Assembly (NCBI GenBank): GCA_032718475.1
Contig: JAUCBJ010003222.1
Span: 1 to 58,824, forward strand
DNA: 58,824 nt
Direction of reading: 5' to 3'
Source: Nemertoderma westbladi
Lineage: Eukaryota; Animalia; Xenacoelomorpha
Positions 1 to 51,966 of the stretch are shown here, one piece after another. Numbering within the stretch: the stretch's first letter is position 1; each line of letters opens with the position of its first letter. Under the pieces are notes generated by a model. That model worked only from the letters and a program-made list of their open reading frames with translations. It had not been told where the DNA came from and ran no database searches. The position numbers and the translations under genes were made by a program.

Positions 1-1304
1 GAGACCTCGGCATACCAACAAACTATCGTGAGATCTGTCTGCTTGTGGTATCTGCCAAAATATACAATAAAATGATTCTATATAGGATTACGCCTCACAT
101 AGAGAAACTACTGCGTAAGAGCCAAAACGGATTTCGACCAAGTAGATCAACAATAGCTCAGATACTTGCACTACGGAGACTGATTGAAGGAATTAAGTCA
201 AAGAATCTCCCCGCTGTCATGACTTTTGTGGACTTCAAGAAGGCATTCGACTCCATCCATAGAGGTAAAATGCTTGAAATCCTAAGAGCATATGGAATAC
301 CAGAAGTAATTGTTGCTGGCATTGGATTGTTATATTGTGATACAGAAGCGCAGGTACTCTCACCAGATGGTGAAACTGAGTTTTTCTCAATCCTGGCTGG
401 CGTACTGCAAGGTGACACATTAGCACCATTACTATTTGTAATTGTGCTGGATTACGCAATGAGGACGGCCACAAAGGGTGAAGACCTGGGATTCACACTT
501 CAAGAACGCAGAAGTAGTAGATATCCGGCAACTACAGTCACAGACACCGACTTTGCGGATGACATCGCCCTGCTCTCTAATACCCTAGCAGATGCACAGC
601 TTCTACTAAATAAAGTGGAGAGGGCTGTTAAGGAGGTTGGATTGCATATAAATGCTACAAAGACCGAATTCATGACCTTTAATGTTGATGGAAACTTGAC
701 AACCATTGATAATAATCAACTAAGGAAGGTCGATGACTTCCAGTACCTTGGATCATGGATAGAGAGTAGCAAAAAGGACATAGAAGTTAGGAAAGCAAAG
801 GCTTGGGTAGCTCTATCAAAAATGGATACCATCTGGAAATCAGATCTCTCCAGGCACCTGAAGACTATGTTCTTTCGAGCCACAGTGGAAAGTGTATTTT
901 TATATGGGGGTGAGACCTGAACACTGACTAAATCACTTGAACAACGAATTGATGGTTGCTACACAAGACTACTAAGGGCAGCCCTAAACATCAGCTGGAG
1001 ACAACACATGACAAACGCCGAGCTTTATGGTACAATACCACCTGTATCAACCACCCTCCGTGAACGCAGATTAAGATTCAGTGGGCACTGCTGGCGAAGT
1101 AAAGACGAGGTCATACCAGATCTACTTTTCTGGCAACAAACTCATGGAAAGCGTAGTCATGGACGACCGGCCATGACATATATAGATCAACTTGAAAGGG
1201 ATACTGAACTTAGGAGAAACGAAATTGCGACAACTATGGAGAATCGGGAAGCCTGGAAGGATCTCATTTCCACTGTCCGAGTTCGCTCGACCTAGTAGTA
1301 GTAG
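1..1304 (+). pseudogene. RTE-clade non-LTR retrotransposon, RT domain and 3' end
   Basis: RT motifs QNGFR, FVDFKKAFDS, GVLQGDTLAP, DFADD, FQYLGS in ORF 45..920. A TGG>TGA nonsense codon at 918-920 is followed in frame by the RTE C-terminus (RLRFSGHCWR...GKRSHGRP) to 1295, then a (TAG)4 tail at 1293-1304. Confidence 0.92.
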
Positions 1305-10624: not shown

Positions 10625-11146
10625 TGTTAGCTTATCCAATTCCGCTAACACAAACCCATAGAGTGAGCCATAAAGCAATATTGGGAGCACGAGGTTGATT
10701 ACCAATCAACCTCGTGTCAGCCCAGTAAACGGGGACAATAGGCCCCAAAGGAGACACACACAATAGGGGTTAGGGGCCAAACCCCTAACCGAGAGAGAAC
10801 ACAGGGAGTGAAGGGAAACACTCCAAAGGGTGCCAACAGGGGTATCAACCAATCAGAGGGGGGAAAGGCATCGATTGAGTAGCAATAAGGCCACCGTGCA
10901 ATATAACCAGTAACCTGTAATCATTCATTCAGTTTACTCAGTCAGATCAGTAGGGTGGAACGGGGACTTCTGTCACCGTCCGCTACCGCCATCATACTTA
11001 TATTACCTGTTGTGTTATACTATATATCAGACTATTATACCTTATACATATTACCCAACATCAGAACTCTTTTACCTTTCACACACGGCGGGGACGCGTG
11101 GATAGAAAACCCAACGGATAAACCGGGATCCGTAGATCCCGTCACA
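10625..11146 (+). repeat. 5' LTR (522 bp)
   Basis: TGTTAG...GTCACA; identical by eye to 17140..17661; CCAAT (~10849) and TATA-like AATATAA (~10900) followed by TCAGT Inr-like motifs. Confidence 0.95.
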
Positions 11147-11247
11147 GTGACAGAATCAGATCCGCCCAGCTGCCCTGACAGTGACAGAACTAGTTCCACC
11201 CAGCTGCCCTGATAGTGACAGAACTAGATCCGCCCAGCTGCCCTGAC
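11146..11247 (+). repeat. 3 x 34-bp tandem repeat at the PBS position
   Basis: AGTGACAGAAYYAGWTCCRCCCAGCTGCCCTGAY starting at 11146, 11180 and 11214. Confidence 0.9.
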
Positions 11248-17139: not shown

Positions 17140-17661
17140 TGTTAGCTTATCCAATTCCGCTAACACAAACCCATAGAGTGAGCCATAAAGCAATATTGGG
17201 AGCACGAGGTTGATTACCAATCAACCTCGTGTCAGCCCAGTAAACGGGGACAATAGGCCCCAAAGGAGACACACACAATAGGGGTTAGGGGCCAAACCCC
17301 TAACCGAGAGAGAACACAGGGAGTGAAGGGAAACACTCCAAAGGGTGCCAACAGGGGTATCAACCAATCAGAGGGGGGAAAGGCATCGATTGAGTAGCAA
17401 TAAGGCCACCGTGCAATATAACCAGTAACCTGTAATCATTCATTCAGTTTACTCAGTCAGATCAGTAGGGTGGAACGGGGACTTCTGTCACCGTCCGCTA
17501 CCGCCATCATACTTATATTACCTGTTGTGTTATACTATATATCAGACTATTATACCTTATACATATTACCCAACATCAGAACTCTTTTACCTTTCACACA
17601 CGGCGGGGACGCGTGGATAGAAAACCCAACGGATAAACCGGGATCCGTAGATCCCGTCACA
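17140..17661 (+). repeat. 3' LTR (522 bp)
   Basis: Identical by eye to 10625..11146. Confidence 0.95.
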
Positions 17662-19129
17662 GTTTAAGACTAATTTCTTTAATTGGTGCTACAGTAATAA
17701 GTGCCTTTAAAAATATATCTTTAAAAACAGTGTACGCAAGGTTAATGTCAGCGGCCTTAAAACAGGGTTCCCAGTCAGAATTAACTAACAAACTTAAAAA
17801 GCGTTCCTTGCTGTAATTTTTCATAGATCTAACTGTTACTGTTTTATGATCCCCGAAAAAAGATTTTTGTGTCTTTCTTGTGCAAAAAACTATAAAATGA
17901 TCGCTTAGACCTATAGGTAAAACCCCAGATTGAGAAATAATATCGGTATTATTACAAAGGATGTGATCTAGTAAAGTAGAAGTTTTACTGGTAATTCTGG
18001 TAGAATCTCGAATAATTTGTTTTAAACCAAACAAATTTAAAATACTTTGGTACTGTTTACAGATGGGGGATGCTTTGTGATGGTAACAGATATTAAAATC
18101 ACCTAAGAAATATATTTCACAGTCTGACCTAAGATTACATAAAATTGTATTTTCAAAATTTTGCAAAAAATCTGATTGTTTAGGGGGCCGATATAAAGTA
18201 CCGATTAAAATAGGTTTAGTTTTAGGAAGTAAAAGTTCCACCAGTAAAACTTCGTCACAAGTCTCTAAATCTTCCCTACGATTAAAACCTAAATCACATC
18301 GAATGTAAGTACAGACACCACCACCGTGTCTGTCCCTATCCTTACGTAAAACTACGTAATTATCAATATAAATTTCTCCATCAGAAACACTATCATCGAG
18401 CCAAGTTTCAGAGATTGTTAAAACTGCTGGGTTGGATTTATTGATTAAAATACGAATTTCGGAAAGTTTTGGAAGCAGAGATCGTGCGTTTAAGTGCAAA
18501 AAATGCAGACCTTTTTTCTTAAAAAAATTAAAAGTTTCACTCTCAGCATCACTTGGAGTTTGCAGAGGCGATGTGAGAAATGAATCGTCGGTTTCTGATT
18601 CTAAAATTGTATCATGAAAGGGAAGTTCGGTAAAAATACAGCTATTGCAGAGAAAACTTGGTTCAAGATTGTTTCTGGTGGAGAATAAATTACTGCGTTT
18701 CCTACGGTAACATTTTAAATGTACAAATGTGTCACAACTCTCGCATTGGACGATCTTACTCCGAGAGTTTGTTCCTCGTTGACATACGGGACAGTTGATC
18801 TTCGGGGCCCGCGTCCTGCTGGGTCCTGGGTTGGTCTCAATATCCCCAGCCAGAGACAGTAGACAGAGTTTAGCGATTAGGCCTCTAGATCGTGGAGAGG
18901 AGACCCAAGATCTTCTTCCCCGACGAGAGCAGTAGAGGCTAAATCCACTCCTCGACCACATCTCCGTCGATTCGGCGCGGCAGTTCGAAACGGTAGCGAC
19001 AGGGTGTTCCGCAAACCAGTCCAATACGGGTATTGGGTGGGTTGCAGGGTTACCCCGCGGATCGGATGGTTCTGCCACAACGAAACGACCCAGAACGATG
19101 AAAACTGTGGAGATTAAGAGCGGGGACAT
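17662..19129 (-). CDS. LINE ORF 5' part: hydrophobic leader, 2A-like peptide, PHD finger, APE endonuclease
   Basis: LLSLAGDIETNPGP; CPVC..QCESC..H..C..CNSC; HLNARSL, ISETWL, GGGV, YRPP, GDFN, LLDH, LSDH. Confidence 0.92.
18821..18880 (-). other. 2A-like StopGo (ribosomal skipping) sequence
   Basis: GDIETNPGP matches the D(V/I)ExNPGP consensus at aa 95-103 of ORF 17657..19129. Confidence 0.85.
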
Positions 19130-22009: not shown

Positions 22010-23672
22010 GGAAAGCATGCTGCCATGCAACTTGCAAGGAATGCAGTAAAGAATTGAAAGGCCTAGTGACTCGTTTAAAACATCATATAACCATCTGTAC
22101 TGGCAACGGCAAAGTGAATGTGATTGAAGAAGGTGAGAATTGTATAGCGGTACCAACGACAACCGATGAATCAAGGAGTGTTTCTACCACTAGCCTCAAG
22201 CGTTCAGAAACAGACACTCCTTATTTAGAACCAAACACATTACGAAAGGTACAAAAACAGGGGACAATGAATAAATTCGTTTGTAAGACATCGAAATCAG
22301 AGAAAGATCTGTTAGATTTACAGGTAGCTCGTTTTATATATGCCACCAATACATCGACGCTGTTTCTCACCCAGAATTTATTGCACTGATCAAGATGTTA
22401 TGGCCCGGGTACAAACCCCCAAGCAGGTTTGATGTTAGTAAAAGATTGTTGGACATAGAGTACACGATGATGTAATGTCAAAGTGTAAGGAGGAGAAGCT
22501 GGATAATAGGGATGTTTGTATGTCCTTGGATGGTTGGAGTAATGTTCGAAATGATTCCCTTATCTGTATGTCTGTCACTACTCCAGATGGAGATACATTT
22601 CTTACTGAAACCATTGACACTGCTGGAAAATCACACACTGGAGACTACTTGCAAGAGGTTGCAGAAGAAGCACGTGATTCCTGTGAGAAAGAGTTTGGCT
22701 GTTCTGTTCGAAGCTTTGTGACAGACAATGCATCAAATATGGGTAAACTAAGAACAAATTTAATGAAGAATGATGAACATATTGTGACCTACGGATGCAC
22801 AGCCCACGTTTTAAATCTTTTTGCTCAGGATGTGGAAATTAAGGGTGTCCAGGAAGATATCCTATCGATAGTCAAGTACTTCCGCAATCACCACCTGCCA
22901 GCTTCATGGTACAAGGAAGGCAACTGGAGGGAAGGCTCTCATTATGCCGCAAGAAGTCCATTGGAATACGATGTCTGATTGTCTAGAGCGATATTTAGAG
23001 AGTTGGCCTCTATTATTGAACATCTGTGAAGAACATCGGAGTGACATAGACAGTACAACAGCAGCGAAAGTGAAGAATATTAGCATCAAACGCAATGCTG
23101 AAGATCTCCTTGCCCGTCTGAAACAAATTGCAGTTGCCTTGGATCGCGTCCAAACTTCTACTTGTTCAATTGGAATGGCAGTTGATGTCTGGGAAAGACT
23201 TAGTGAAGATCTGAATGGTCAACCAGCATCTGTAATGAAGCACTTCAAAGAAAGGAAATCCTTTGCACTTACTCCGGCACATTTCCTAGGCAACATTGTT
23301 GATCCGAGATATAGAGGTAAAAACTTGACAGTTGACGAAATGGACAGTGCTTTGACTTACGCAGGGCAAAGAAAGATTCTTCCAACAATTATTAACTATC
23401 GAGCTCAGACTGGCCCATTCAAGGGATATATGTTCTCTGACGAAGTAACACAATCTGTGAGTCCAATGGCCTGGTGGAAGTCCCAGGAACAGGAGGTTGG
23501 TGAGAAGACATTATCAACGATCTACCAGCTGCTTAGTGCTATGTCATCAAGTGCCAGCCTTGAGAATATTTTCTCCACATTTGGATTTATTCACTCCAAA
23601 GTACGTAATCGTTTGGGTGTAGAAAAGGCAAGCAAGCTCATATTCATTTACAAACTGTTAAATTCTAAATAA
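22010..23672 (+). pseudogene. hAT transposase (BED finger, DUF659-type core, dimerisation domain), frameshifted
   Basis: CKEC..LKHHITIC; SLDGWSN; VTDNASNM; GCTAHVLNL; WWKS...SSASLENIFS...RNRL, spread over ORFs 22054, 22475 and 22944. Confidence 0.9.
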
Positions 23673-27489: not shown

Positions 27490-27970
27490 TATAATTAATT
27501 GCTTTAATAATAAAAGATTCATTTTTAAACTCTACATCAACTAGAAAACTATCTGCAATTTTCTTCTTACCAATGCAGTCATATATTTGTTGAAACAATG
27601 TTTTGAACTTAGTTTGAAACATCATGAGAGGATGCATGTTATAAATGTAAAGATAGATCAACATCACATTGATGATAGGGGGATCCACCCACTCCACTGG
27701 CGTCTGATTTTAATTTCAATAGGTAAGACATAACTTCTTGGTTTGTTGGTAGACGACCATTTGGAAGACTCACTGTCGTGAAATATCCTACTGTTCTCTC
27801 ATTCAGTATTCTCAGGAGACCAGGCAATGTTAGACACATGTTCCTTACACATTATGAAATTAGACATTCTCTTCTTTGGTGTCTTTCGACGATCTTCAAA
27901 AGCTTCATTGCCGATAATTATTAAGTCCTGCTTCTGGAATACAGATGATCTTGTAATTAAAGTATTCATC
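27490..27970 (-). pseudogene. Internally deleted hATw-like transposase remnant (also 30455-30643 + 35085-35385 and 37865-38345)
   Basis: YFTTVSLPNGRLPTNQEV and NMHPLMMFQTKFK...FLVDVEFKNESFIIKAI match YFPTLESFPNGKLPTIAQV and NIHPLMMFQ...FLVDLDMHHESFIIKAI of ORF 31412. Confidence 0.88.
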
Positions 27971-29595: not shown

Positions 29596-29739
29596 TTAGT
29601 TTATTACTTTTATTTATAGTTTATCAATATTCTAGTAAATGAAGTAGCTTAATTATTTGTGGTAGGAGAATTATTGAGGTGTTTGTTATTTGATAAATAA
29701 TAATTTTTATTATTTATTTTATTTTTATTTATTTATTAT

Positions 29740-29928
29740 GTCCTGATGGCTACAGCTGCTATTGAAAAGCGTAGATAATTTGTTTTGCCGCGATCCGGTG
29801 TTCCGAATATTGAAACTTTTTGGCTGTAGCTAGGTGCACAAAGGGTCCAGATATTCTCCTGGGATATCCACCCTCAGGCTGTCAACCATAGGGAGCCTTC
29901 GGGCCGCCTTTGGGCTAATTTGTGCACT
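29740..29928 (+). ncRNA. HDV-like self-cleaving ribozyme fold, copy 1
   Basis: P1 GUCCUGA(29740-46)/UCAGGCU(29874-80) with G1.U wobble and one mismatch; P2 GGUGCACAAA/UUUGUGCACU; P3 GGG/CCC; L3 begins UCC; P4 CCAUAGG/CCUUUGG capped by GCC-UUCG-GGC; J4/2 GCUAA (catalytic C at 29915). Confidence 0.72.
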
Positions 29929-30300
29929 GACCACTGCGGACGATCATAAGTTTGGGCAAAATCCTGACTTATATACGAAATTCTGCTTAAAGAAAACAAG
30001 CGTAATCACAAAGTCCGAAGTCACGGGACTGACTCCCTTAGTCAGGAACTTTCTTCTCAAAGTTTTGAGATAACAAACGCAAACCAATCATAGCCGCTGT
30101 GAAGCGGTGTATCCTACGGACCGGAAACGTTAACCAGGAGCTATTTACTCTGCCCGACGTGGGTAAACCACAAGCGAAAACTCGTATACAGCCCAGCCTC
30201 TACTGGGCCCCCCACGAACAAAAAGGGAACACCAAGAACCTTTCGGAAAGACCACATCATATAGAGACAAAGAGAGACTGATCTGAAATGTTATTATTAT
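29740..30300 (+). mobile_element. Short internally deleted RTE derivative (ribozyme head plus RTE 3' end), copy 1
   Basis: Starts at the predicted ribozyme G1; 3' part encodes a WAP..KGTPRTFRKDHI RTE-like C-terminal relic; (TTA)n tail; TSD-like AT-rich flanks. Confidence 0.6.
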
Positions 30301-30643
30301 TATTTATTTTATTATTATTTATTATTAATTTTTGTTATTTGATAAATATGTGTTATTATTTTATTGAACGTCATGTTTATATATATTTATTTTTGTATAA
30401 TTAATAATTGTTCTATCATTATATCTGAAATATATTACATTAATATAATGTATATATAATTAATTGCTTTAATAATAAAAGATTCATTTTTAAACTCTAC
30501 ATCAACTAGAAAACTATCTGCAATTTTCTTCTTACCAATGCAGTCATATATTTGTTGAAACAATGTTTTGAACTTAGTTTGAAACATCATGAGAGGATGC
30601 ATGTTATAAATGTAAAGATAGATCAACATCACATTGATGATAG

Positions 30644-33600
30644 TAGGGGGAGATGTTAGGTCACAAACAGTATTGGCTACCATCCACAAAGTTGTGTCCA
30701 TGTATCCTGTCACCGAAAATAACATCAAAACAGGGTAGGTGTCAAGTCCTAGGGTACCTACCCCCCTACTTAGATGCGCTTCCATCATATGCGACTGAAT
30801 GTAGTCTAGCGGGTTAACCGCTCTCACTAATTATGCAAAAAAAACGTAAAATTCAGAATTAATTATGTAAACTATCATCAAAAATACACCTACAGGGTAG
30901 GTGGTCACGGTTAGGTCCTCAAAACAGATTAGATTCAAGTCCTAGGGTACCTTCCCCCACTTAGAACAGATTCCATCATGTGCGACAATGTAGTCTAGCG
31001 GTCCTGCAGTCAAATGTCGTGTCCTGGGGGTACCCCTGCTTTAGAATGTGTCATTGCCTGTGATGGGTCACCAAATGTAGGCCTAGTTTTGTGCTACATC
31101 CTCTTGGGAATTCTGTAATTTAGGAGTTAAGCACTTATCTTAGCATAGGCCTTTGGTGACTTAGTAATTTGTAGATCGAATGTAACATAGTTATAGGATC
31201 CAATGTAACATAATTGAGGTTACGTTCGATTCGTAAAAACTATGTTACGTTCGATCCTGATTACGTTCGGTCTGTCACCCCCACTCTTTATAGGCCTACC
31301 TACTGGTTGCAGTTCATTTCATATAATTTATACTATTGATACTTTGAATTCATTATATTGGATACTATATACAAAATTTAATCTAATTTAAACTCTTAGT
31401 ATATTTATCTAATGGAGTCTGAAGAACAAGAAGATTTTAATTTTCTTACAACTAGAGCGAGTCAATACAGCAGGAAAGCAGCTACAGAAGTAGAAGTTTC
31501 TACATCAGCAGCATCTTCATCAAGTCGTCCTGTAAGAAAGCTGCAAGTGATAAAATGCCAGAACCATTATCAAAAGAAGGATTTGGGAAAGGATTGCTCT
31601 GAGTGCATTTACTTTCCCACATTAGAGTCTTTTCCAAATGGAAAGCTCCCAACTATAGCTCAAGTGATTGGTTTAACTTTGGTGGCAAAACATGATGAAC
31701 AAAACCAAGCTCTGAAGGTTGACGTTATTTTAGATGTTGTATCAAATATGATGCTCCAATGGATATATTGCAACATTTACACTGTAACACGAAAGTCTGT
31801 AAGAAACAAATTGGAATCTTTATTAAAGGAATACTACTATCTTAAGGACTATCCTGCAACTAAAAAGAAATATACTTACTGGCAAAGGTTCCAGGATTTT
31901 CAGGCAAAGTGCAAGGGTCTCTTTGACATCAAATGTGACAGTAGCAAAGAGAAATCACAGGGACTAATATGGGGTGTTATGATGACTGATGATGATCGGA
32001 AATTCTATGAAAATCAGTGTTTGATGCCACAAGTTGGGTACTGTTCTTCTTTTGTGAATAGGAAATGGGCAGTATCTAGTGAAAGGCATAATAGAGAAAG
32101 TCTTAGCAAGTTAAAGGCAAAGGAGAAATCAGAGATTGAAAAAGAGAAGTTAAATCCTATTGCATGGTCTGATATTGAAGGTGGAATTTTGAGTGAAAGT
32201 AATGATGAAGGTAGCTTAGATGAAGGTGAATGCTTCGAATTGGCAACACCTAAGAAAAGAAAGTATCAATTTGATGATGTTCTTGAATCAGAAAATGACC
32301 AGATTATGTCATTTAATTATAGACATATCCGTAATGGACCAAGATCGGTACGGCCAGAGGTTTATACATTGATGCATAAGTTGTCATCAGAATTTCATAT
32401 GAGCAAAGCTCAAATAGAAGGTTCAATTATCAATGTAGCCAATACCCTATTTGGTAGAAATTGGAAAGCTTACAGTAATGATGATGCAACAACTGTTGAT
32501 ACACTGCCAAATCTGAGCAACTTAAGAAGAACCGAGCCATACATAGAAGCAATGGCCCTTAGCACTATTGTTGAGGATATAATGGAAGATAGTAATATGA
32601 CATCAATTACATACTCGAGTGATGGGTCAAGCATGAGTGGAGTAGGTAAATATGTTGTGCAATCACTCACAATTAATGGTGTGCAGAGAGCACTACCAAC
32701 ACTTGGGATTTTTACAGAATCCAGAGAGAGTCTGAAGGATCTCGAAATTATTACCTTAAAGATACTTTCAGCAGCAGTAGGTCACAAATATTCTGAAAAA
32801 GATATACTTAAGAAGATTTCGTTTGTGATGACTGATAGCACTGCTCATAACCTAAATGTCATTGAAAGTGTTTGTGAGGAGTTAGATGTTGATACTGTAC
32901 CTGGAACACTCTTATGCAACATTCATCCATTGATGATGTTTCAGTCAAATATTAAACAGCTTTGTCAAGAAATACATGATTCGTTAGGACCACGTAAGAT
33001 TAATGAATGTTTTCTGGTTGATCTTGACATGCATCATGAGTCATTCATTATCAAAGCAATTAAGTGTCTTTCGCATTTTATCAATCGAGACTTTTCAGCA
33101 AAACCTTGGAATAGGCAAGGTCATTTTGATGAGTTCATCAAACCAAAGGTAAACATGTCATTGTGTCTAAAAGACCACCGATTTAATAGGATTAATGACT
33201 GTTGTCTAAGCTTGCTTTATCATCTTGATGACATTGCGAACTATCTTGATACATTCAAGAATATTATGAATAACATATCGATTCTAGACCGCAGCTTTGT
33301 TGAGATGGAAATACTCAAACCAATATTGTGTACAATTTCATTAGTTGGAATTCATATTACTCGTCCTTTCGAGCATCTCCTCATGGACACATCAACTACA
33401 TACTCAATGCTGTTAAAGTCATTTCCAAAGCTATTTGCTGATCTTACGGAAATCCCAGCCATCAGATTCAGTTCCACATCAGAACAAGTTTGCACATTTG
33501 TCTCAAGTGAAATTTTTAAGAAGTCATTACCAAATCAATGCTTGTTAGATAACCTCAATCAAATTGCTAAGTGTTACAGCAGAGAAATTGAAGATCTGTT

Positions 33601-35084
33601 AACATTACTACTTCATAAATTTGCAAAAGGTTTTGAAAGACAGAAGGGTGCAATTTTTGGATTTGGAGAAAATAAAGAAGCGGATACAGGCACAGTTCTA
33701 AAAATTGCAAGTGCTACAGAAGAAGAAGTAACTAAGCTCGATCAGACGATAATCCATAATGTTGGTGAGGAAAGAAGTGTTGGATTTGTCAACTATGAGA
33801 TTGGTATCAGGGGGAAACGCTGTCTGGAAGCTGCATCACGTAAGATGATATTAAATAAGGCCAGTGATCTGATAGCACAATGTAATCCTGCAGATTTAAG
33901 CAAATTTAGAAAGCAGTCACAAGAAATAAAGGAACATAAGCTCAATTGGAATGCACGTATGAGAGAACTTCAAAATATTGGATACACTGAAAAACAGGCT
34001 TTAAATACAAAGTTAGAGGAAACCAAATTAAATCTTCTGTCTTTTCTTAAGCACCAACAACCCATGGGACCATTTACTAACTCACAAGAGGTTAAAAACT
34101 TCATCAGTTGCTCGATTGATAATAAAGATGCAAATGATCGTCTATACAGGGAAGTTAAATATGCCAGGATTACTTCTTTATCCCTCCCAGAAAGTTCTTC
34201 CGTTTTTAGATTAAGGAAAGATGGCAAAAATCTGGGTACAAATCACTATGCAGACAATCTAATTCAGTATCTGGATCAGTCAAATAGTGCATCTACAATT
34301 AGTATGGCAGATCTGCATAATGTTTTAACAGGCTTGACAAACATGTCAAGTAAACCGTCATCAATAGGGCATATTGTAGAGAAAACTGTTGAAACATCTG
34401 GCATGAAGGTTGATATAGGAGACCATGTAATTGCATATTGGAGGGATGACAATGACCTGCAATTAAAATGGTACCTAGGTGTTGTTGAATGTCAACTTGG
34501 AGATGGGAAATTCCTAATTTCATATCTCAAGAAATCAGATAAAGATGGGTGCAGTTGGGTGTATCCAGAAGCAGCTGAGGTACTAGAAACATTGGAAGAA
34601 CAGATAATGATGACACAAATTGATGTGACCTACCACTGCACAACAAGAATAAGATGTAATGTCAGTGGTGTCTTGGTAAAAAAGCTCAATGAGCTTTTAG
34701 CAGAAATGTAACTCGAGAGTCAGGACTAATTACAACATAGATACATTTTATTATATCTACAAAGTACAAAACTTTAAAAATGTATTGCATTTTATACCTT
34801 ATACATGTTCATGTTCATCTTGTTTAGGAATGCCAACACAGCTTCTAAATTAGCGCACAAACATCATTTTATTAAATAGTGCTACCCGCTAAGATTATAG
34901 TGGACCATGATGACTGCCGTAAATAATGAGGTAATCACCGAAACTTTGATTGATAGGTAGGTATCCTAAAAAATGGATCCTACCAAATATTTGCACGTTT
35001 TTCATCACCAGTAGACTAATTAACATGTTTTGGACAGGTAGCCAACCCCTTAAAACCCTTTTCAAAAAATAACATCCCCCCCTA
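30644..35084 (+). mobile_element. Intact hAT-related DNA transposon with 7-bp TSD (hATw-like)
   Basis: 15-bp TIR TAGGGGG(A/G)GATGTTA; TSD ATGATAG (30637-43, 35085-91) confirmed by empty sites in array units 1 and 3; ~70-bp subterminal direct repeats at ~30742 and ~30935. Confidence 0.88.
31412..34711 (+). CDS. DDE transposase, 1099 aa
   Basis: Uninterrupted ORF between the TIRs; candidate catalytic SDGS, MTDS, CxxH (CNIH) and HNVGEERS; C-terminal beta-barrel-like domain. Confidence 0.88.
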   Translation: MESEEQEDFNFLTTRASQYSRKAATEVEVSTSAASSSSRPVRKLQVIKCQNHYQKKDLGKDCSECIYFPTLESFPNGKLPTIAQVIGLTLVAKHDEQNQALKVDVILDVVSNMMLQWIYCNIYTVTRKSVRNKLESLLKEYYYLKDYPATKKKYTYWQRFQDFQAKCKGLFDIKCDSSKEKSQGLIWGVMMTDDDRKFYENQCLMPQVGYCSSFVNRKWAVSSERHNRESLSKLKAKEKSEIEKEKLNPIAWSDIEGGILSESNDEGSLDEGECFELATPKKRKYQFDDVLESENDQIMSFNYRHIRNGPRSVRPEVYTLMHKLSSEFHMSKAQIEGSIINVANTLFGRNWKAYSNDDATTVDTLPNLSNLRRTEPYIEAMALSTIVEDIMEDSNMTSITYSSDGSSMSGVGKYVVQSLTINGVQRALPTLGIFTESRESLKDLEIITLKILSAAVGHKYSEKDILKKISFVMTDSTAHNLNVIESVCEELDVDTVPGTLLCNIHPLMMFQSNIKQLCQEIHDSLGPRKINECFLVDLDMHHESFIIKAIKCLSHFINRDFSAKPWNRQGHFDEFIKPKVNMSLCLKDHRFNRINDCCLSLLYHLDDIANYLDTFKNIMNNISILDRSFVEMEILKPILCTISLVGIHITRPFEHLLMDTSTTYSMLLKSFPKLFADLTEIPAIRFSSTSEQVCTFVSSEIFKKSLPNQCLLDNLNQIAKCYSREIEDLLTLLLHKFAKGFERQKGAIFGFGENKEADTGTVLKIASATEEEVTKLDQTIIHNVGEERSVGFVNYEIGIRGKRCLEAASRKMILNKASDLIAQCNPADLSKFRKQSQEIKEHKLNWNARMRELQNIGYTEKQALNTKLEETKLNLLSFLKHQQPMGPFTNSQEVKNFISCSIDNKDANDRLYREVKYARITSLSLPESSSVFRLRKDGKNLGTNHYADNLIQYLDQSNSASTISMADLHNVLTGLTNMSSKPSSIGHIVEKTVETSGMKVDIGDHVIAYWRDDNDLQLKWYLGVVECQLGDGKFLISYLKKSDKDGCSWVYPEAAEVLETLEEQIMMTQIDVTYHCTTRIRCNVSGVLVKKLNELLAEM

Positions 35085-37148: not shown

Positions 37149-37337
37149 GTCCTGATGGCTACAGCTGCTATTGAAAAGCGTAGATAATTTGTTTTGCCGC
37201 GATCCGGTGTTCCGAATATTGAAACTTTTTGGCTGTAGCTAGGTGCACAAAGGGTCCAGATATTCTCCTGGGATATCCACCCTCAGGCTGTCAACCATAG
37301 GGAGCCTTCGGGCCGCCTTTGGGCTAATTTGTGCACT
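37149..37337 (+). ncRNA. HDV-like ribozyme fold, copy 2
   Basis: Identical to 29740..29928. Confidence 0.72.
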
Positions 37338-37710: not shown

Positions 37711-40331
37711 ATTTATTTTATTATTATTTATTATTAATTTTTGTTATTTGATAAATATGTGTTATTATTTTATTGAACGTCATGTTTATATATATTTATT
37801 TTTGTATAATTAATAATTGTTCTATCATTATATCTGAAATATATTACATTAATATAATGTATATATAATTAATTGCTTTAATAATAAAAGATTCATTTTT
37901 AAACTCTACATCAACTAGAAAACTATCTGCAATTTTCTTCTTACCAATGCAGTCATATATTTGTTGAAACAATGTTTTGAACTTAGTTTGAAACATCATG
38001 AGAGGATGCATGTTATAAATGTAAAGATAGATCAACATCACATTGATGATAGGGGGATCCACCCACTCCACTGGCGTCTGATTTTAATTTCAATAGGTAA
38101 GACATAACTTCTTGGTTTGTTGGTAGACGACCATTTGGAAGACTCACTGTCGTGAAATATCCTACTGTTCTCTCATTCAGTATTCTCAGGAGACCAGGCA
38201 ATGTTAGACACATGTTCCTTACACATTATGAAATTAGACATTCTCTTCTTTGGTGTCTTTCGACGATCTTCAAAAGCTTCATTGCCGATAATTATTAAGT
38301 CCTGCTTCTGGAATACAGATGATCTTGTAATTAAAGTATTCATCTCCTGCTGTGTAATGTAGGCCTATACCCCGTACTGACATATTATTCGGCCTCAAAT
38401 ACAGTAAACATTTCATATACAGATTGATACACTTGTTTTCTTATTTGGCTTAATATTCTTCTGTATTCTTCTGCTATTTTGCCATTATTATTAGTATTAC
38501 CGTACTTTTCGATTATTTGCATTACTGTGATTATAAGATTATGGTCAAGCAAATTCGTTGCAGCCATTGTGGGGGGAAGGTTGGTCCGGCCAACCATCGG
38601 AGGCCAACCTGTCCCCTCAGGAACATTCCAGAGGATGCTCCTCTACAGCCTCCTCCTGCTCCACCAATCCCTACTGCTCCTCTAGTAGTGCCGGTACTGG
38701 TGCAATCTCGGTCGTTTGCCGAGGTTGTGTGACTTCCGGTACCGGTACGACCAACCATTCTCCGTGCTGCTGCCTCTCTAATAACCACCCAACCACTCGT
38801 AACCAACTGCTCCACTCCACCCACCGCTCCTCTGCAGCCCTCTTCTGCTGCTCTTCTAATCCCTCTAGGAATTCGACTCGTCTCTTCTCCGCCGATTTCC
38901 CAATCTGCCCTCCACCACCGTCTCATAGCCCTCCCGCCAACGCTTCACTCCTCCTACCTTTGGACCCCTCCGCAACATTGCTCCTCAACCAGTACGTCCA
39001 TAGTTTGTTATCCCTATACCTGCCCCTCGTCGCCGTTTTATGTCCCCTCCCCAACTGGCTCCTCTTCAATGTTTTGTCTCCCCTCCCCAACCCGCCCCCC
39101 GTTTCATCTCCTCCCCCCAACCTGCCCTCCATTTCATCCCATCTCCCCAACCTGCCCACCGTTTTATCTCCTATCCCCAACCTGCCCCCCCCCCCCCCCC
39201 CCGTTTCATATCCTCTCCCCAACCTGCCCCCCTTTTAATCTCCTCTCCCCCACCATCCCCACAACGTTGATTTATCTCCCCGCAATCCTCCCCCACCCCT
39301 ATGTCACCTGATTTTACCCCCCCAGTTTCCCCGATGATGACCACCCCACCGCCGTCATCATTCATTACTGTCTCTCGCCGACGTCCCCTAACTCAACTTT
39401 CTCCCCCCGCTTATCCTTTCTCCCCAACCGCAGTTAATGTTTCTCCCGGTTCCCGCTTCTCTCCAATTGCTCTTCGTCCATCTACTTCTCCACCTCCGTG
39501 CACATTCTCCATGCTGCTGCCCCTCTAATAACCACCCAACCTCTCGTAACCAACTGCTCCACTCCACCCACCGCTCCTCTGCAGCCCTCTTCTGCTGCTC
39601 TTCTAATCCCTCTAGGAATTCGACTCGTCTCTTCTCCGCCGATTTCCCAATCTGCCCTCCACCACCGTCTCATAGCCCCCCCCCCCCCCCCCGCCAACGC
39701 TTCACTCCTCCTACCGTTAGACCCCTCCGCAACATTGCTCCTCAACCAGTATGTCCACAGTTTGTTATCCCTATACCTGCCCCTCGTCGCCGTTTTATAT
39801 CCCTTCCCTAACTGGCTCCTCGTCAACGTTTTGTCTCCCCTCCCCAACCTGCCCCCTGTTCCATCTCCTCACCCCAACCTGCCCCCCATTTCATCCCATC
39901 TCCCCAACCTGCCCACCGTTTTATCTCTTATCCCCAACCTGCCCCCCGTTTCATATCCTCTCCCCAACCTGCCCCCCTTTTAATCTCCTCTCCCCAACCA
40001 TCCCCACGACGTCGATTTATCTCCCCGCAATCCTCCCCCACCCCTATGTCACCTGATTGTACCCCCCCCAGTTTCCCCGATGATGACCATCCCACCGCCG
40101 TCACCATTCATTACTGTCTCTTGCCGACGTCCCCTTCCTCAACTTTCTCCCCCGGCTTCTCCTTTCTCCCCAACCGCAGTTAATGTTTCTCCTGGTTCCC
40201 GCTTCTCTCCAATTGCTCCTCGTCCATCTACTTCTCCACCTTACCGTGTTAATTTACCGTGTTAATTCTCAATTTTGTTGCCGTTATCCCGACACCAGGG
40301 GGGAAAAACGCCGATGCTGGAGGCGAGCTCT

Positions 40332-45036: not shown

Positions 45037-45483
45037 AAACTGTTGTTTTATTTTGTCACTTGAGGTCTCCCAGTCCTACATATTACAGAATCATGATCAC
45101 ACCAGTGACAACAGCGCGACAGTATTTACACACTATATGGAGTAATGGATACCGTTTTAAGACATTATAAAAAAGTTCATCACCATTAGGAGAATCACTA
45201 TTGATAGCTGCAGGTGACCACTGGCACACCCCCCAGTTTCAGGCCGTATGATCTGGCAGAGTATGAATACGTTAACTACCTATAAAATTTTGCATTTAAG
45301 CATCCTCCCTTCTTTGTGATGTATGCCGTCTATCTTTGCCAAACTTCTTTCTTAACACTAAGAATCCGGCAACGCATCTCCTTATTATCCATTTCCAGCT
45401 TGAAGCCAGGAGACATTATCTCCATCAAAGATACAAGTACAAATATGAAAGTAAATGTTTTAGCTGAATAAACAATAGTTAGT

Positions 45484-47373
45484 TTAAAAAGAACGCTAGA
45501 CAATGTTGCTTTTTTGCAGTGTATAAATATATTTTTCGAGGAGGTGGGAATGCTCTCAAGTGAACTATATGGAGTAATGATACCGTTTTTAAAAGGAACG
45601 CTAGACAATGTTGATTTTTTGCAGTGTATAGATATATTTTTCGAGGAGGTGGGAATGCTCTCAAGTGAACTATATGGAGTAATGATACCGTTTTTAAAAG
45701 GAACGCTAGACAATGTTGCTTTTTTGCAGTGTATAGATATATTTTTCGAGGAGGTGGGAATGCTCTCAAGTGAACTATATGGAGTAATGATACCGTTTTT
45801 AAAAGGAACGCTAGACAATGTTGCTTTTTTGCAGTGTATAGATATATTTTTCGAGGAGGTGGGAATGCTTTCAAGTGAACTATATGGAGTAATGATACCG
45901 TTTTTAAAAAGAACGCTAGACAATGTTGCTTTTTTGCAGTGTATAGATATATTTTTCGAGGAGGTGGGAATGCTTTCAAGTGAACTATATGGAGTAATGA
46001 TACCGTTTTTAAAAGGAACGCTAGACAATGTTGCTTTTTTGCAGTGTATAGATATATTTTTCGAGGAGGTGGGAATGCTCTCAAGTGAACTATATGGAGT
46101 AATGATACCGTTTTTAAAAGGAACGCTAGACAATGTTGCTTTTTTGCAGTGTATAGATATATTTTTCGAGGAGGTGGGAATGCTCTCAAGTGAACTATAT
46201 GGAGTAATGATACCGTTTTTAAAAGGAACGCTAGACAATGTTGCTTTTTTGCAGTGTATAGATATATTTTTCGAGGAGGTGGGAATGCTTTCAAGTGAAC
46301 TATATGGAGTAATGATACCGTTTTTAAAAAGAACGCTAGACAATGTTGCTTTTTTGCAGTGTATAGATATATTTTTCGAGGAGGTGGGAATGCTTTCAAG
46401 TGAACTATATGGAGTAATGATACCGTTTTTAAAAGGAACGCTAGACAATGTTGCTTTTTTGCAGTGTATAGATATATTTTTCGAGGAGGTGGGAATGCTC
46501 TCAAGTGAACTATATGGAGTAATGATCCTGTTTTTAAAAAGAACGCTAGACAATGTTGCTTTTTTGCAGTGTATAAATATATTTTTCGAGGAGGTGGGAA
46601 TGCTCTCAAGTGAACTATATGGAGTAATGATCCTGTTTTTAAAAAGAACGCTAGACAATGTTGCTTTTTTGCAGTGTATAAATATATTTTTCGAGGAGGT
46701 GGGAATGCTTTCAAGTGAACTATATGGAGTAATGATACCGTTTTTAAAAAGAACGCTAGACAATGTTGCTTTTTTGCAGTGTATAAATATATTTTTCGAG
46801 GAGGTGGGAATGCTCTCAAGTGAACTATATGGAGTAATGATCCTGTTTTTAAAAAGAACGCTAGACAATGTTGCTTTTTTGCAGTGTATAAATATATTTT
46901 TCGAGGAGGTGGGAATGCTCTCAAGTGAACTATATGGAGTAATGATACCGTTTTTAAAAGGAACGCTAGACAATGTTGCTTTTTTGCAGTGTATAGATAT
47001 ATTTTTCGAGGAGGTGGGAATGCTTTCAAGTGAACTATATGGAGTAATGATACCGTTTTTAAAAAGAACGCTAGACAATGTTGCTTTTTTGCAGTGTATA
47101 GATATATTTTTCGAGGAGGTGGGAATGCTCTCAAGTGAACTATATGGAGTAATGATACCGTTTTTAAAAGGAACGCTAGACAATGTTGCTTTTTTGCAGT
47201 GTATAGATATATTTTTCGAGGAGGTGGGAATGCTTTCAAGTGAACTATATGGAGTAATGATACCGTTTTTAAAAAGAACGCTAGACAATGTTGCTTTTTT
47301 GCAGTGTATAGATATATTTTTCGAGGAGGTGGGAATGCTCTCAAGTGAACTATATGGAGTAATGATACCGTTT
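45484..47373. repeat. 105-bp satellite, 18 near-identical copies
   Basis: Unit TTAAAARGAACGCTAGACAATG...GGAGTAATGATACCGTTT; essentially 4 recurrent polymorphic sites. Confidence 0.97.
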
Positions 47374-50300
47374 TAATACATTATAAAGAAGTTCATCACC
47401 ATTAGGAGACTCACTATTGATAACTGCAGGTGACCACTGGCAACACCCCCCAGTTTCAGGCCATATGATCTGGCAGAGTAGGAATATGCTAACTACCTAC
47501 AAAATTTTGCATTTTAAGCATTATATGTTAATTATACATTAAACATTACATTAGGAATGATCATGAGTTACATCTCGATTAAAGTATTTATGTACAACAA
47601 ACGTTTTAACGGAAGATGATATCTAAGAATTTAAGGAAATAATTGGAAGACGTTATCAGTTTGTATGTTATAGGGATAATGTCCCAGATTCAACTTCATG
47701 AGTATTTAGTAAAAGGGATGCAGTTAGGCCAACAACTTGGCTCGATAAAATGATGGACCCTGCAGGGGTATAGCCTACTTCAAATCTATAGCTTATGACA
47801 CAGAAATAACTGAAGGTTGGTTATAGGTATAACATAGCACCTGACCAAATTCCATGGGCAAAAGTGTCTCTACAAATGCATGAAACAGCTGTTGTAGTAA
47901 TAAGTAAAGCATTTAGTGCAAGAAGAAAGCAGTACCCTTTATGATATTATATATCCCAAATGGGACATAGAGTTAAAGGAGACACTGTGGTAGGAGATCT
48001 AGCTATACAGATAGAGTTCCAACAAAGAAAGTCTAAAAATGATACGTCATATAACTTATGGCAGAGATCACAATTGAACGTGTTGGAAAGTAGGGTCGAA
48101 GATTTACATAATTTTATATTTGTAGGTGATAAAGAGAGAACATTAGTTGCAATCGGTTGCAGAGAGTAGCATGGATGGAATGGGTGGGTGGATCACCTAA
48201 TAGAAACCCTTTCCAATTCTGGACCATCTAGACCGATACCTGTTGACTATGCTTTTCATCTATTCCGAGTAAGCAATATTGCCCTTCCTGATGACCCAGT
48301 TGGATACATAATCTGCTTAATAAGTATAAAAAATAAAAATCTGATCTATATAGATCACTCACAAAATTTAGCACGAGCAGTGAATTACTATAACACCGGT
48401 TTGTATTCTAATCAAATAACTGAAAAACATGAAAATAGACCATGGGGAGTTATGTCATACATTATCGGGGTAGGCGACATGTTTGGAAACCTTGAAACAT
48501 GGCAAGTTATAACTGATGATGATTGGAGACATGAGAACCCCTGAGTGGCTCAGTACTTCAAGTCTTTAGAAATTTACCATCAATGTTTTATGGAAGATTC
48601 CCATAAACAGCATCATTTATAAGAAGAGGGAAATGATGAAAGGGTGGGTAATAAAGTTAAATTATGTCCATCTGATGTAGTGAAGGGCGGCTGGGAACCT
48701 CCAAGCCCACGCCCAGGACAGTTTCACTAGCTGCTTAGCCATCACATTTTGGAATACATAATGCAGAAAAACCCATAGCATCTTCAACAATTCGTCAGGA
48801 AATCACAAACAAACAAAACCTACAATTGTCATTTTATATTATATATGTCTATGTATTCTATATGTCATTTTCATATTTGCGGTGCATACCCTTAATTTCA
48901 GTATTTCATACAAATTTATTATTAATTATTATTAATATTATTACTAATGTGTGTTAGGAAATGCTGAACAATGCCATTCCTAATGTTAAGTATATGACAA
49001 TAATTTCGTTACCATATAATATCCTACCGTTACCATAGATGGGGTTCGTTATCATTAAATATGTATCATTAGTAAATATAGAATATATTTATTACCTTTG
49101 TTTATTGGGTTTCCTAAAGGTGTAGTTCTCTAATTACAATCAGGTGTAAGTAACCAAGAATGACATATGGGTGCCACGTTACCAATAGGAAACCGTCAAT
49201 GAATGCCAGCGTTGCACCTAATTATAATAACATTTATTATTTAAAAAATAAATGTATATATATTTATAATATTTAGTTGGCATAGAAACAATTACCTTAT
49301 AATAATCTATATTATATATTGTTGTTGATAAAATTTTCTATATATGTGTAATGCCGTATCTTATAAAACACTTATTTTTTCTCTACTCTATTTATATTAT
49401 GCCTCGACCGGTCCGAGCTATTTGTACTGTTAATCACATACATGAGATCAGAATCGTTGGGTCTTCCCACCCAGACCACCTCTTTCGGTACCTTGGCCAC
49501 AACAACCGCGTCCACAATCGTAACTTTAGCATCTCTCCCACAGTTGCCAAAGTTACGTTTCAGCTGAGTTCTGGGAAAACATTTGACACCCATAACCCAC
49601 ATGAGGTAATCACCAATTGGGCAGTGGCGGATCCAGGGGGGGGGGGGGGGGGGGGGGTTTAGTGCGAGCAATTTAAAGTAAGGTTTGCTATTTCCCACCA
49701 AGGCACACACACTCCCTAAGCCATACAATATGCAATATGTTAAACCCAAGACAAACCCTGAACCAGGAAATGTGAAGACATCTAGATTCTTCCACATACG
49801 GTTCCACTCTACCCGTTAAGGGTTTAAGTGTTGAACTGCAGGTTCCCAGCGCCGTCCTAAATTAAGACCTAATCTCAATATAAAATCTCAAGGTAAGTTT
49901 TATATGGCCCTGAATCAGGCCACTGACATTGCACTTAGCAAATAAATTTGACATTTAAAATAATTATCTGTCTCAACGAGCCCAATAGATTTCTTTGTCA
50001 TAAAAGAAATTGTTGTTGTGTTGTGTTATGCTGCGCGCTCCACTTGTGTTCTGGAAAATTTTGGATAATGGGAATTTTCCCCACTGTCTTTCTTTCCAAA
50101 TTTCGTTCTATAAGTTTATTCTTTTTATACTGGTAGGCCTAATTAATAATTACTTACTAAAATAAATATTATTATCCTAATTAATTTCTTAATTAATGTT
50201 TAAGATTTTAAATCAATTACATGAAAAAAAAAAAAAAAATAGATAACCATGCCATAAAATAGAAAAAAAAAAGAATACTAAAACAAATAAAAAAACCAAA

Positions 50301-50636
50301 ATGTCATTATTGTATGCCAGTTCGTCATGGTGTTAATTAATATCGGTAGGGCCTATAGTAAAAGTAGTCTATAGTAAAAGTAGCAGTTTTATACTGGTTT
50401 AATTATTATTTAGGCTTACTTAATTAAATATAATTATTCTAATCACTTTATAAATTAGAGATTTATTAATTAGAGATTTTTTCTAGAATTTTAATAAGAG
50501 GAGTGTGACTAAATATTTAGAGTAAATTTTCAGATTTAATTTTGTGTTAATTACTAGCTAGTTTTTAATTACTATATTTTGGGCTTATGTTACAGTACGA
50601 CCTTTTACGAGATAATTGTGTCAGTCAATGTGTCTG

Positions 50637-51527
50637 CCATGAAGTACAATGACATTGGAAATGGATGGACGTTAGTAACAAGCTCAGCAGTAAGAAACTC
50701 AGCCAATGCATCAATTGGTGGAGTAGGAATTCTGCTAAGCCCATTTGCACTTAAGACCCTAAACAACATAGAATCTATAAATTCCAGGGTTATGATCGCA
50801 ACATTTGATGGGAATCCCAAGGCAACAGTTATATGTTGCTACAGTCCAACCAATGCCTCAGAGCCAGAACAAGCAGTCAAGTTTTATGAAGAACTGACTG
50901 GACTTATAAAGGACATTCCGAAACACAATGTTAAAGTGATTGCTGGTGACTTGAATGCCCAAATTGGCCCAGAAGACATCAAGGGTTACACCTATAACAC
51001 CAGTTCTAACAGAAATGGGTACTTACTTTTAGATCTAATGGAAGAATGTGAATTGATACCAACAAACAACACATTCGAAAAGAGTAAGGGGAAGCTATGG
51101 ACCTTTCAATACCCTAATGGAACCAAAGCACAACTGGATTACATCCTTATAAACAAAAAGTGGAGAAATAGCATGATCAACTGCGAGGCATACAGCTCGT
51201 TCAACCTAATTGGTTCGGACCACAGAATTGTGACTGCAGAGATCAGACTCAGTTTGAGAGCCAGCAAACCCAGGACAAGCAAGCAAATCAAATATGACTG
51301 GGAAAAAATCAGAACTGGCAATGCTGTAAAGGATGCTTATACAGTAGAAGTTCAAAACTGCTTTGAAGCACTCCAGTCAATGGATGAAGACCAATCCACC
51401 AATTCAATATACCAGAATATAATAACAGCCCACAAGGAATCAGCTAAGAGGCATATCCCCCAGAAACCCAAACGAAAACAATATGTGCCATGGCAAAACT
51501 CTGAGGTTACTTATAAGAGAGAAGATC
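50637..51527 (+). pseudogene. RTE LINE APE endonuclease fragment
   Basis: GGVGILL, CYSPT, IAGDLNA, NRNG, WTF, QLDYILI, SDH; cut at TTAA 51528-31 by the piggyBac-like element. Confidence 0.9.
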
Positions 51528-51966
51528 TTAACCCTATTAAACCCGGGGGGGGGGGGGGTCAATATGACCCCCCCGTGGTTTTTTTATTATAATTCTGAAA
51601 CAAACGCAGTTGGGAATCTGAAACTTTCTGACTTTTCCTAAAAATCTATTATCTTCCTAGTAGTGAAAACCGTTTTCAAAAATATTGCGTACTTTTCAAG
51701 TTATAGCACCATTTTTTAACCCTACTTTTGGCACTTTTTTTGAGACGTTTTTTGAAAATAACATTTCATTAAATATGAATTGTAACATCTCTATTTTTTA
51801 TTTACACCGGTTTTTTGGTGTTAGAAATTGGATGGAATTCATATAAATTGATTTAGAAATTTCAAACTTGTTTTTTTCGGTGGGTGCCAAATTTTGGTGC
51901 CAGCACCAAATTTTGAAATATGTCAATTTTGTAAATTGATTATTTGAAACTTGTTTTTTACGCAAT

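What the first reader, a model, noticed from the sequence alone, without database searches (positions are those of the whole stretch)
29740..29928. HDV-like ribozyme with an extra hairpin inserted in the catalytic L3 loop
Seen: all HDV nested-pseudoknot elements in the correct order (P1 with G1.U wobble, 10-bp J1/2 stem, 10-bp P2, GGG/CCC P3, P4 with a C(UUCG)G cap, J4/2 GCUAA). G1 falls exactly at the element/AT-rich flank boundary. Known: RTE and R2 elements carry 5' HDV-like ribozymes, and L3 is normally a short conserved loop (UCCNCG-like). Unusual: L3 here is 25 nt, UCCA-[GAUAUUCU ccu GGGAUAUC]-CA, i.e. a 7-8-bp hairpin at about the normally extruded position. Inference: a variant HDV architecture; this copy may be inactive (one P1 mismatch; CG>CA at the G25 equivalent). 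Second copy at 37149.
Basis: partly seen in the sequence, partly recalled or inferred. Interest (0 to 1): 0.8.

Follow-up and report, generated by a model that had tools for sequence, protein, structure and literature searches.

The report
Delta-type ribozyme with extra core hairpin
A short inserted element in an animal genome starts with the layout of a hepatitis-delta-type self-cutting RNA, but it carries an extra hairpin and an A in place of a normally fixed G in a core loop; intact relatives likely cut at the first base, perhaps slowly, and this copy is likely damaged.

Summary
The motif is real. P1, an 11-bp J1/2 helix, a 10-bp P2, a GGG/CCC P3, P4 and the catalytic-C position lie in HDV order at 29740-29928. 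A descriptor found 2 hits in 705 shuffled strands. Contigs from two samples show the L3 hairpin is shared by other copies: no indels appear, and all 7 covering contigs carry A29849G, which makes it 9 bp. The A at the G25 position is also shared, not a private lesion. One contig group restores P1 and has a different upstream flank, which supports G29740 as the 5' end. Empty-site joints and nested direct repeats mark a retroposon-like insert. The 37149 copy is an identical tandem duplicate, so it is not independent. Not shown: cleavage, two-sided covariation, expression or an RTE origin (the 3' part scored no better than shuffles). It fails two defining features of canonical HDV ribozymes (G25, short L3), so I call it a variant that likely works like one. 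This scan has noted L3-hairpin HDV motifs before, on other genomes (unchecked notes). Ten literature searches listed no description, but three key papers were not held.

The parts
29682..29699 (+). outer 18-bp direct repeat, left copy (candidate target-site duplication)
   Evidence: exact match to 30331-30348; empty-site joints hold one diverged copy
29703..29738 (+). inner AT-rich (TTA/TTTA) repeat, left copy; co-inserted 5' of G1
   Evidence: 33 of 36 aligned columns match 30293-30327
29740..29746 (+). P1 5' strand; G29740 is the predicted G1 (cut predicted 5' of it); T29741 is a mismatch in this copy
   Evidence: X2 contig 3 reads GG before 29742
29747..29832 (+). J1/2 domain closed by an 11-bp helix (P1.2-like) that abuts P1 and P2
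   Evidence: pair probabilities 0.81-1.0; fold
29833..29842 (+). P2 5' strand (10 bp with 29919-29928)
29843..29845 (+). P3 5' strand GGG
29846..29848 (+). L3 UCC (U20, C21, C22 equivalents)
   Evidence: sequence; no variant listed
29849..29869 (+). extra L3 hairpin: 8 bp here, 9 bp in other copies (G at 29849)
29870..29870 (+). A at the position of the normally invariant G25
   Evidence: unchanged in 3 of 3 spanning contigs
29871..29873 (+). P3 3' strand CCC
29874..29880 (+). P1 3' strand
29881..29882 (+). P1.1 3' side: G pairs with C29848; U faces C29847
29886..29913 (+). P4 with C(UUCG)G cap, 9 of 12 positions paired
29914..29918 (+). J4/2 GCUAA; C29915 is the predicted catalytic C (C75 equivalent)
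   Evidence: no variant listed
29919..29928 (+). P2 3' strand
29934..30292 (+). apparently non-coding body of the insert; other contigs continue with a different sequence after 29933
   Evidence: loose ends; no protein similarity
30293..30327 (+). TTA-type tail / inner AT-rich repeat, right copy
30331..30348 (+). outer 18-bp direct repeat, right copy
37149..37337 (+). identical second copy, part of a tandem duplication of a ~2.96-kb unit

Best explanation
The stretch 29740-29928 is an HDV-type double-pseudoknot layout at the 5' end of a short, low-copy insert that likely moved as a non-LTR retroposon; its family carries a hairpin in L3 and an A at the G25 position, intact copies likely self-cleave 5' of G29740 (probably slowly), and this copy is likely impaired. 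Shown: the helices, their order, the shared hairpin and A, the 5' boundary in a second flank, the empty sites. Inferred: P1.2 pinches P1 against P2 as in drz-Agam-2-1; C29915 acts as general acid; C29848-G29881 forms a one-pair P1.1; the hairpin projects outward in place of the flexible positions 23-24; U29846 and A29870 form a trans pair in place of U20.G25; cleavage frees the element RNA from a read-through transcript so that a LINE enzyme supplied in trans can copy it.
For: All helices in HDV order, with 2 of 705 and 9 of 1109 shuffled strands reaching the score. None of the 19 laid contigs shows an indel or joint; A29849G is in 3 of 3 (X2) and 4 of 4 (X3) covering contigs and adds a pair to the hairpin. 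X2 contig 3 (depth 62) has GG before 29742, giving a full P1 (duplex -10.3 vs -6.1 kcal/mol), and a different upstream flank. That flank and the window's end in U at -1, the best base in PMC1874588 (abstract). Of 8 listed changes at helix positions, 2 restore a pair and 4 keep one as a wobble. Empty-site joints 29669->30348 occur in X1, X2 and X3, with an 18-bp outer repeat and a TTA-type tail. A U.A pair at this site keeps slow activity in antigenomic HDV (528-fold lower k2; PMC3386971 passages). A structured J1/2 with a long P2 speeds HDV-like ribozymes (PMC4908430, part 1 of 4). U23 is flexible in the crystal models (PMC4227795 passages).
Against: G25 is described as invariant in natural HDV-type ribozymes. 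A G-to-A change there abolished cleavage of the Nasonia R2 ribozyme, and the inactive sow bug ribozyme has C-to-A and G-to-A changes in L3 (PMC3774820). No two-sided compensatory change was found. Among the changes at pairs of P1.2, P2, P3 and the hairpin, 4 of 5 keep pairing against 39% expected at random (p about 0.08 by my hand binomial, not significant). Variant density is 8 of 125 core sites vs 8 of 64 J1/2 interior sites, p=0.17. Two changes break pairs (A29828T, A29888T). One deep contig group in X3 (depth 93-97) looks decayed in P1 and P4. With P2 and P3 forced, Vienna gives U29846-A29870 as an ordinary pair extending P3 (0.98), and in the unconstrained fold, which cannot form pseudoknots, P3 is only 0.17. 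The 3' body shows no RTE protein similarity (237 of 270 shuffles score as well). The data come from two samples and from contigs only.
Confidence: 0.55

Rival explanations
1. The fold descends from an HDV-like ribozyme but the whole local family is dead: the hairpin and the G25-to-A change are lesions that were copied passively with surrounding repeats.
For: G-to-A at this site kills or cripples known ribozymes. No significant conservation signal. The depth of flank-sharing contigs (62 vs 16 in X2) and the tandem duplication in the window suggest amplification together with flanks. A 40-nt stretch 5' of G1 was co-inserted, as expected if the RNA was not cut. The hairpin holds a 6-nt direct repeat (29849-54 in the family form / 29862-67), which could record a small duplication.
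Against: At least two different 5' flanks meet at G1. The other copies have more pairs than the window copy in both P1 and the hairpin. Unchecked notes report conserved L3 hairpins in unrelated genomes (leads only).
Confidence: 0.3
2. The 190-nt motif is a free-standing module that has been joined to different repeats, and the 550-bp insert is not a shortened LINE.
For: Two different sequences follow 29933, five bases after P2 (in X1, X2 and X3). The body matches no protein.
Against: The same break is what an internal deletion of a longer LINE would give (bipartite elements, PMC5786205 passages). The tail and direct repeats are those of target-primed insertion (established knowledge).
Confidence: 0.1
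3. The HDV reading is a chance overlay on two strong hairpins, and the RNA folds otherwise.
For: No Rfam match. The minimum-energy fold pairs the P3 5' strand with J4/2. A relaxed scan gave one other hit in the real window.
Against: Shuffle rates are 0.3-0.8% per strand without counting P1.2, the UUCG cap or the boundary. Natural variants repair P1, and G1 marks a flank change. Vienna cannot form the P1 pseudoknot.
Confidence: 0.05

Closest known systems
drz-Agam-2-1, Anopheles HDV-like ribozyme (PMC4908430, part 1 of 4 read)
   Same: Large structured J1/2 closed by a P1.2 helix, an extended P2 (12 bp there, 10 here) and nested double-pseudoknot order.
   Different: Here L3 is 25 nt with a hairpin, there is an A at the G25 position, and there are no single-stranded linkers around P1.2. 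No activity has been shown.
HDV-like ribozymes at the 5' ends of non-LTR retrotransposons: R2, R4/Dong, L1Tc, RTE, Baggins (PMC3774820 passages and section 15; PMC6765202 passages; Ruminski 2011 not held)
   Same: Position at an element's 5' end, G1.U wobble, L3 starting UCC, catalytic C in J4/2.
   Different: The conserved C and G of L3 are replaced by a helix plus A. No ORF or parent element was identified here.
CPEB3 ribozyme (PMC9901934 passages)
   Same: P1.1 of one C-G pair beside a pyrimidine-pyrimidine pair (U.U there, C.U here).
   Different: CPEB3 is small, has a short L3 and is a single-locus intronic RNA.
Bipartite non-autonomous LINEs: RTESINE/WALLSI3/Bov-A (RTE), R2 SIDEs, NARTc (PMC5786205 abstract and passages)
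   Same: About 550 bp, apparently non-coding, ribozyme-type head, microsatellite tail, direct repeats.
   Different: Homology of the 3' part to any LINE was tested against one RTE subgroup and not found.

Membership tests
HDV-like ribozymes | P1, P2, P3, P4 in nested double-pseudoknot order | tested here: met
   P1 has one mismatch in this copy and is complete in X2 contig 3
HDV-like ribozymes | G1 paired with a pyrimidine at the end of P1 | tested here: met
   G29740.U29880; feature from PMC6326823 passages
HDV-like ribozymes | P1.1 of one or two pairs | tested here: met
   C29848-G29881 plus C.U; the two-pair form of the descriptor is not met
HDV-like ribozymes | U20 at the start of L3 | tested here: met
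   U29846
HDV-like ribozymes | G25 forming the trans G.U pair with U20 (described as invariant) | tested here: not met
   A29870 in the window and in 3 of 3 spanning contigs; invariance from PMC3386971
HDV-like ribozymes | short L3 with conserved C24 (U19-C23-G24 in the descriptor; 6-8 nt length recalled) | tested here: not met
   25-nt L3; the C before the A is paired in the hairpin in other copies
HDV-like ribozymes | catalytic C in J4/2 followed by purines | tested here: met
   C29915-U-A-A; the descriptor uses CRRA, so the second base departs (a U here in antigenomic HDV is recalled, not from a call)
HDV-like ribozymes | match to a curated Rfam HDV-clan model | tested here: not met
   no ribozyme match at E<=1
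HDV-like ribozymes | two-sided covariation of the helices | tested here: inconclusive
   only one-sided changes among near-identical copies
HDV-like ribozymes | Mg2+- and C75-dependent self-cleavage 5' of G1 | not testable with these tools
   needs a bench assay; no RNA holder was listed
bipartite non-autonomous RTE | target-site duplication and microsatellite tail | tested here: met
   18-bp outer repeat, 33/36 inner repeat, empty-site joints in paralogous host copies
bipartite non-autonomous RTE | 3' part homologous to an RTE 3' end | tested here: inconclusive
   no protein-level similarity to one RTE subgroup; a 3' UTR or another subgroup would be missed
bipartite non-autonomous RTE | autonomous parent with the same 5' end in the genome | not testable with these tools
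   no whole genome held; contigs give only 30 loose letters
R4/Dong (TAA microsatellite targeting) | insertion into TAA repeats | tested here: not met
   two other 5' flanks are not microsatellite; the repeat reads TTA on the motif strand

The most novel reading that the evidence does not exclude
This family is an active natural HDV-type ribozyme that has rebuilt its active-site loop: a 9-bp helix replaces positions 23-24 and a U.A pair replaces the supposedly invariant, metal-binding U20.G25 pair, with the helix making up for the loss. It would be one member of a widespread L3-hairpin subclass that descriptor and Rfam searches miss.
Probability: 0.3. Interest if true: 0.75.

Novelty: new variant of a known kind. 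Interest (0 to 1): 0.5.

Why it matters
L3 and the U20.G25 pair are part of the signature used to search for HDV-like ribozymes (PMC3386971). A natural, active form with a helix in L3 and an A at G25 would show that the active site tolerates more than assumed. It would mean published searches have missed a subclass, and it offers a site next to the core where a helix can be inserted. A small set of transcription assays can test it directly. If the family does not cut, it is a decayed retroposon head and of little interest.

Tried and rejected
No whole genome is held. No RNA holder was listed, which is no evidence on expression. X1 has no contig over 29704-29873, and X4 and X5 laid nothing; a filter drops records, so this is no evidence. 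Pattern scans: viral contigs 0 hits and 1 hit without P2; metagenome contigs 0 hits and 1 hit inside a GC-rich 90-aa ORF that reads like a ferredoxin by its Cys motifs (my reading), rejected as chance. The 69-aa frame at 30069-30275 gave 0 hits in three searches (none at E<=10; none at E<=0.001; best 0.81). By eye it recalled an RTE C-terminus, but a profile of 41 RTE C-termini with a frameshift-tolerant alignment scored 11.0 bits, and 237 of 270 shuffles did as well. A full-length RTE profile was also not significant. The 85 RT-bearing loci (the best 80 of 169 plus 5) and L001, 411 kb in all, held no convincing L3-hairpin motif; few of them include element 5' ends, and my scanners missed the bulged short-L3 motif in L010, so sensitivity is limited. 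An alternative register (P3 3' at 29867-69 with a GG P1.1) was rejected because no matching P1 5' strand was found. The 1103-aa ORF at 31400 is not the element's gene; it lies in a separate inverted-repeat insert. No tRNA genes were found. No covariance model was built, as only two identical copies are held as sequence.

Full report
Observation. A descriptor allowing L3 of 6-40 nt, with thresholds set after seeing the hit, finds only 29740 and 37149 in the window and 2 hits in 705 locally shuffled strands. A looser version gives 9 hits in 1109 shuffled strands, 2 of them with a GC-rich P3, plus one AT-rich hit in the real window that I read as chance. The 193-nt fold has z -2.55, while the hairpin alone is not unusual (z 0.61). 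Rfam has no ribozyme match.

The second copy is not independent. It is identical over the motif and shares about 0.9 kb of flank on each side; both copies lie in a ~2.96-kb unit repeated in tandem (99.8% over 2972 bases), one unit being split by a 4.4-kb inverted-repeat insert. That insert, not the ribozyme element, holds the 1103-aa ORF.

The insert. No genome was held, so I laid public contigs of the same species label (two samples for the runs that gave cover; contigs only). Contigs in X1, X2 and X3 join 29669-29672 to 30348 through 26-29 other letters. These are diverged copies of the host repeat without the insert, not a proven orthologous allele. An exact 18-mer flanks the insert (29682-99 / 30331-48). 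Inside it an AT-rich stretch is repeated (33 of 36 columns; 29703-38 / 30293-327). The nested order fits two insertions, a template jump onto a second tail, or copying of an uncut read-through RNA; I cannot separate these. Direct repeats and a microsatellite tail are marks of target-primed non-LTR insertion (established knowledge).

What other copies show (19 contigs laid, 16 listed as pieces). No indel or joint is listed anywhere in 29730-29960, so no short-L3 form is among them. A29849G is in 3 of 3 covering contigs in X2 and 4 of 4 in X3 (X1 has no cover there); it pairs with C29869, so the shared L3 is UCC-[9-bp hairpin]-A. Three contigs span the whole P3-L3-P3 (X2 6, X3 13, X3 15). Their 3, 9 and 1 differences can all be assigned, partly by matching depths (my inference), and none touches A29870. 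X2 contig 3 reads GG before 29742, which completes P1 (duplex -10.3 against -6.1 kcal/mol), and its upstream flank differs from the window's. X3 contig 9 gives a third flank if a one-base insertion is allowed (my inference); that group also has an altered P4 and looks decayed. The P1 mismatch is real at this locus: X2 contig 13 matches 29670-29804 with no difference. Of 8 listed changes at helix positions, 2 restore a pair, 4 keep one as a wobble and 2 break one; none is two-sided. Neither pair retention nor variant density (8 of 125 vs 8 of 64 sites, p=0.17) is significant. The table omits changes near contig ends. The family looks low-copy, though contig depth is not a copy number.

What element it is. 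Earlier notes of this scan (AI notes, unchecked) report L3-hairpin HDV motifs heading RTE and bipartite RTE elements in other genomes, several said to be cartilaginous fish. They led me to Kojima 2018 and to test an RTE origin; a sequence look-up found no look-alike of this motif among them, and no HDV note exists for this genome. The test failed to show homology: 237 of 270 shuffles scored as well against an RTE C-terminal profile, a full-length profile was not significant, and three protein searches were blank. A second sequence follows 29933 in three runs, which could be a parent's 5' UTR or a sign that the motif is a free module. RTE origin is therefore a lead only.

Mechanism. Most likely, intact copies fold as an HDV double pseudoknot and cut 5' of G1 with C29915 as general acid, freeing the element RNA from a read-through transcript (all inferred, by analogy with R2, L1Tc and RTE; PMC6765202 passages). 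The P1.2 helix and long P2 resemble drz-Agam-2-1 (PMC4908430, part 1 of 4). The hairpin takes the place of positions 23-24; U23 is flexible in the crystal models (PMC4227795 passages). The weak point is G25. It is called invariant, and U.A at this site is 528-fold slower though still active in antigenomic HDV (PMC3386971 passages). G-to-A abolished cleavage in Nasonia R2, and the sow bug ribozyme with L3 changes is inactive (PMC3774820 passages and section 15). U29846-A29870 may simply extend P3. I put 0.55 on intact copies cutting, probably slowly, 0.3 on a dead family, 0.1 on a free module and 0.05 on chance. The window copy, with its P1 mismatch, is likely weaker still.

Comparison and novelty. 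It works like an HDV-like retroelement ribozyme by layout but fails two defining features, G25 and the short L3, so I do not file it as a canonical member. Ten full-text searches listed no paper describing a natural L3 hairpin; I saw most hits only as listings. Ruminski 2011 and two reviews were not held and no supplements were read, so an earlier description cannot be excluded. Other papers seen: PMC9901934 passages, PMC5786205 abstract and passages, PMC6326823 passages, PMC1874588 abstract. Pattern scans and 86 fetched loci gave no outside homologue. Verdict: a real feature, a new variant of a known kind, activity untested; interest 0.5.

Noticed in passing
window 30644-35084: A 4.4-kb insert with imperfect ~15-bp terminal inverted repeats, a 7-bp target duplication and an intact 1103-aa ORF with no Pfam hit. 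The Atlas gives 0.95 to unnamed eukaryotic clusters. Likely a DNA transposon of an unassigned group.
   Followed up: partly
window 27497-27640, 30462-30680, 37871-38014 (- strand): The host repeat holds a 48-aa piece 58% identical to that ORF (E 1e-12), so the transposon sits inside a decayed relative of itself.
   Followed up: partly
window 10625-11148 and 17140-17663: An exact 524-bp direct repeat brackets a 6-kb region with two long ORFs without Pfam hits and splits a PHD-endonuclease/RT LINE. Possibly a young LTR-type insert.
   Followed up: no
window 921-1295 and 50558-51592: A LINE C-terminal fragment with a TAG tail and an endonuclease fragment; the RTE label is my reading from recalled motifs. 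Not linked to the ribozyme element.
   Followed up: partly
L010:283-398: By eye, a short-L3 HDV-like motif (6-bp P1, 7-nt L3 with G, two-pair P1.1, bulged P2) lies upstream of an RT ORF in a likely eukaryotic contig within a MAG. My scanners missed it.
   Followed up: partly
contigs laid at window 29933: A second sequence follows the motif five bases after P2 in X1, X2 and X3. It may be the 5' UTR of a parent element.
   Followed up: no
X2 contig 3, upstream of 29742: The alternative upstream flank has a 6-bp inverted repeat just before G1 and a depth about four times that of the window-type junction.
   Followed up: no
window 57979-57821 (- strand): An AT-rich descriptor hit with an all-AU P3 and a 45-nt L3, fold z -0.3, among short repeats. 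Read as chance.
   Followed up: yes
window 45483-47374: A 105-bp tandem array with open frames on both strands.
   Followed up: no
window 22442-23672: hAT transposase remnants (DUF659, Dimer_Tnp_hAT).
   Followed up: no
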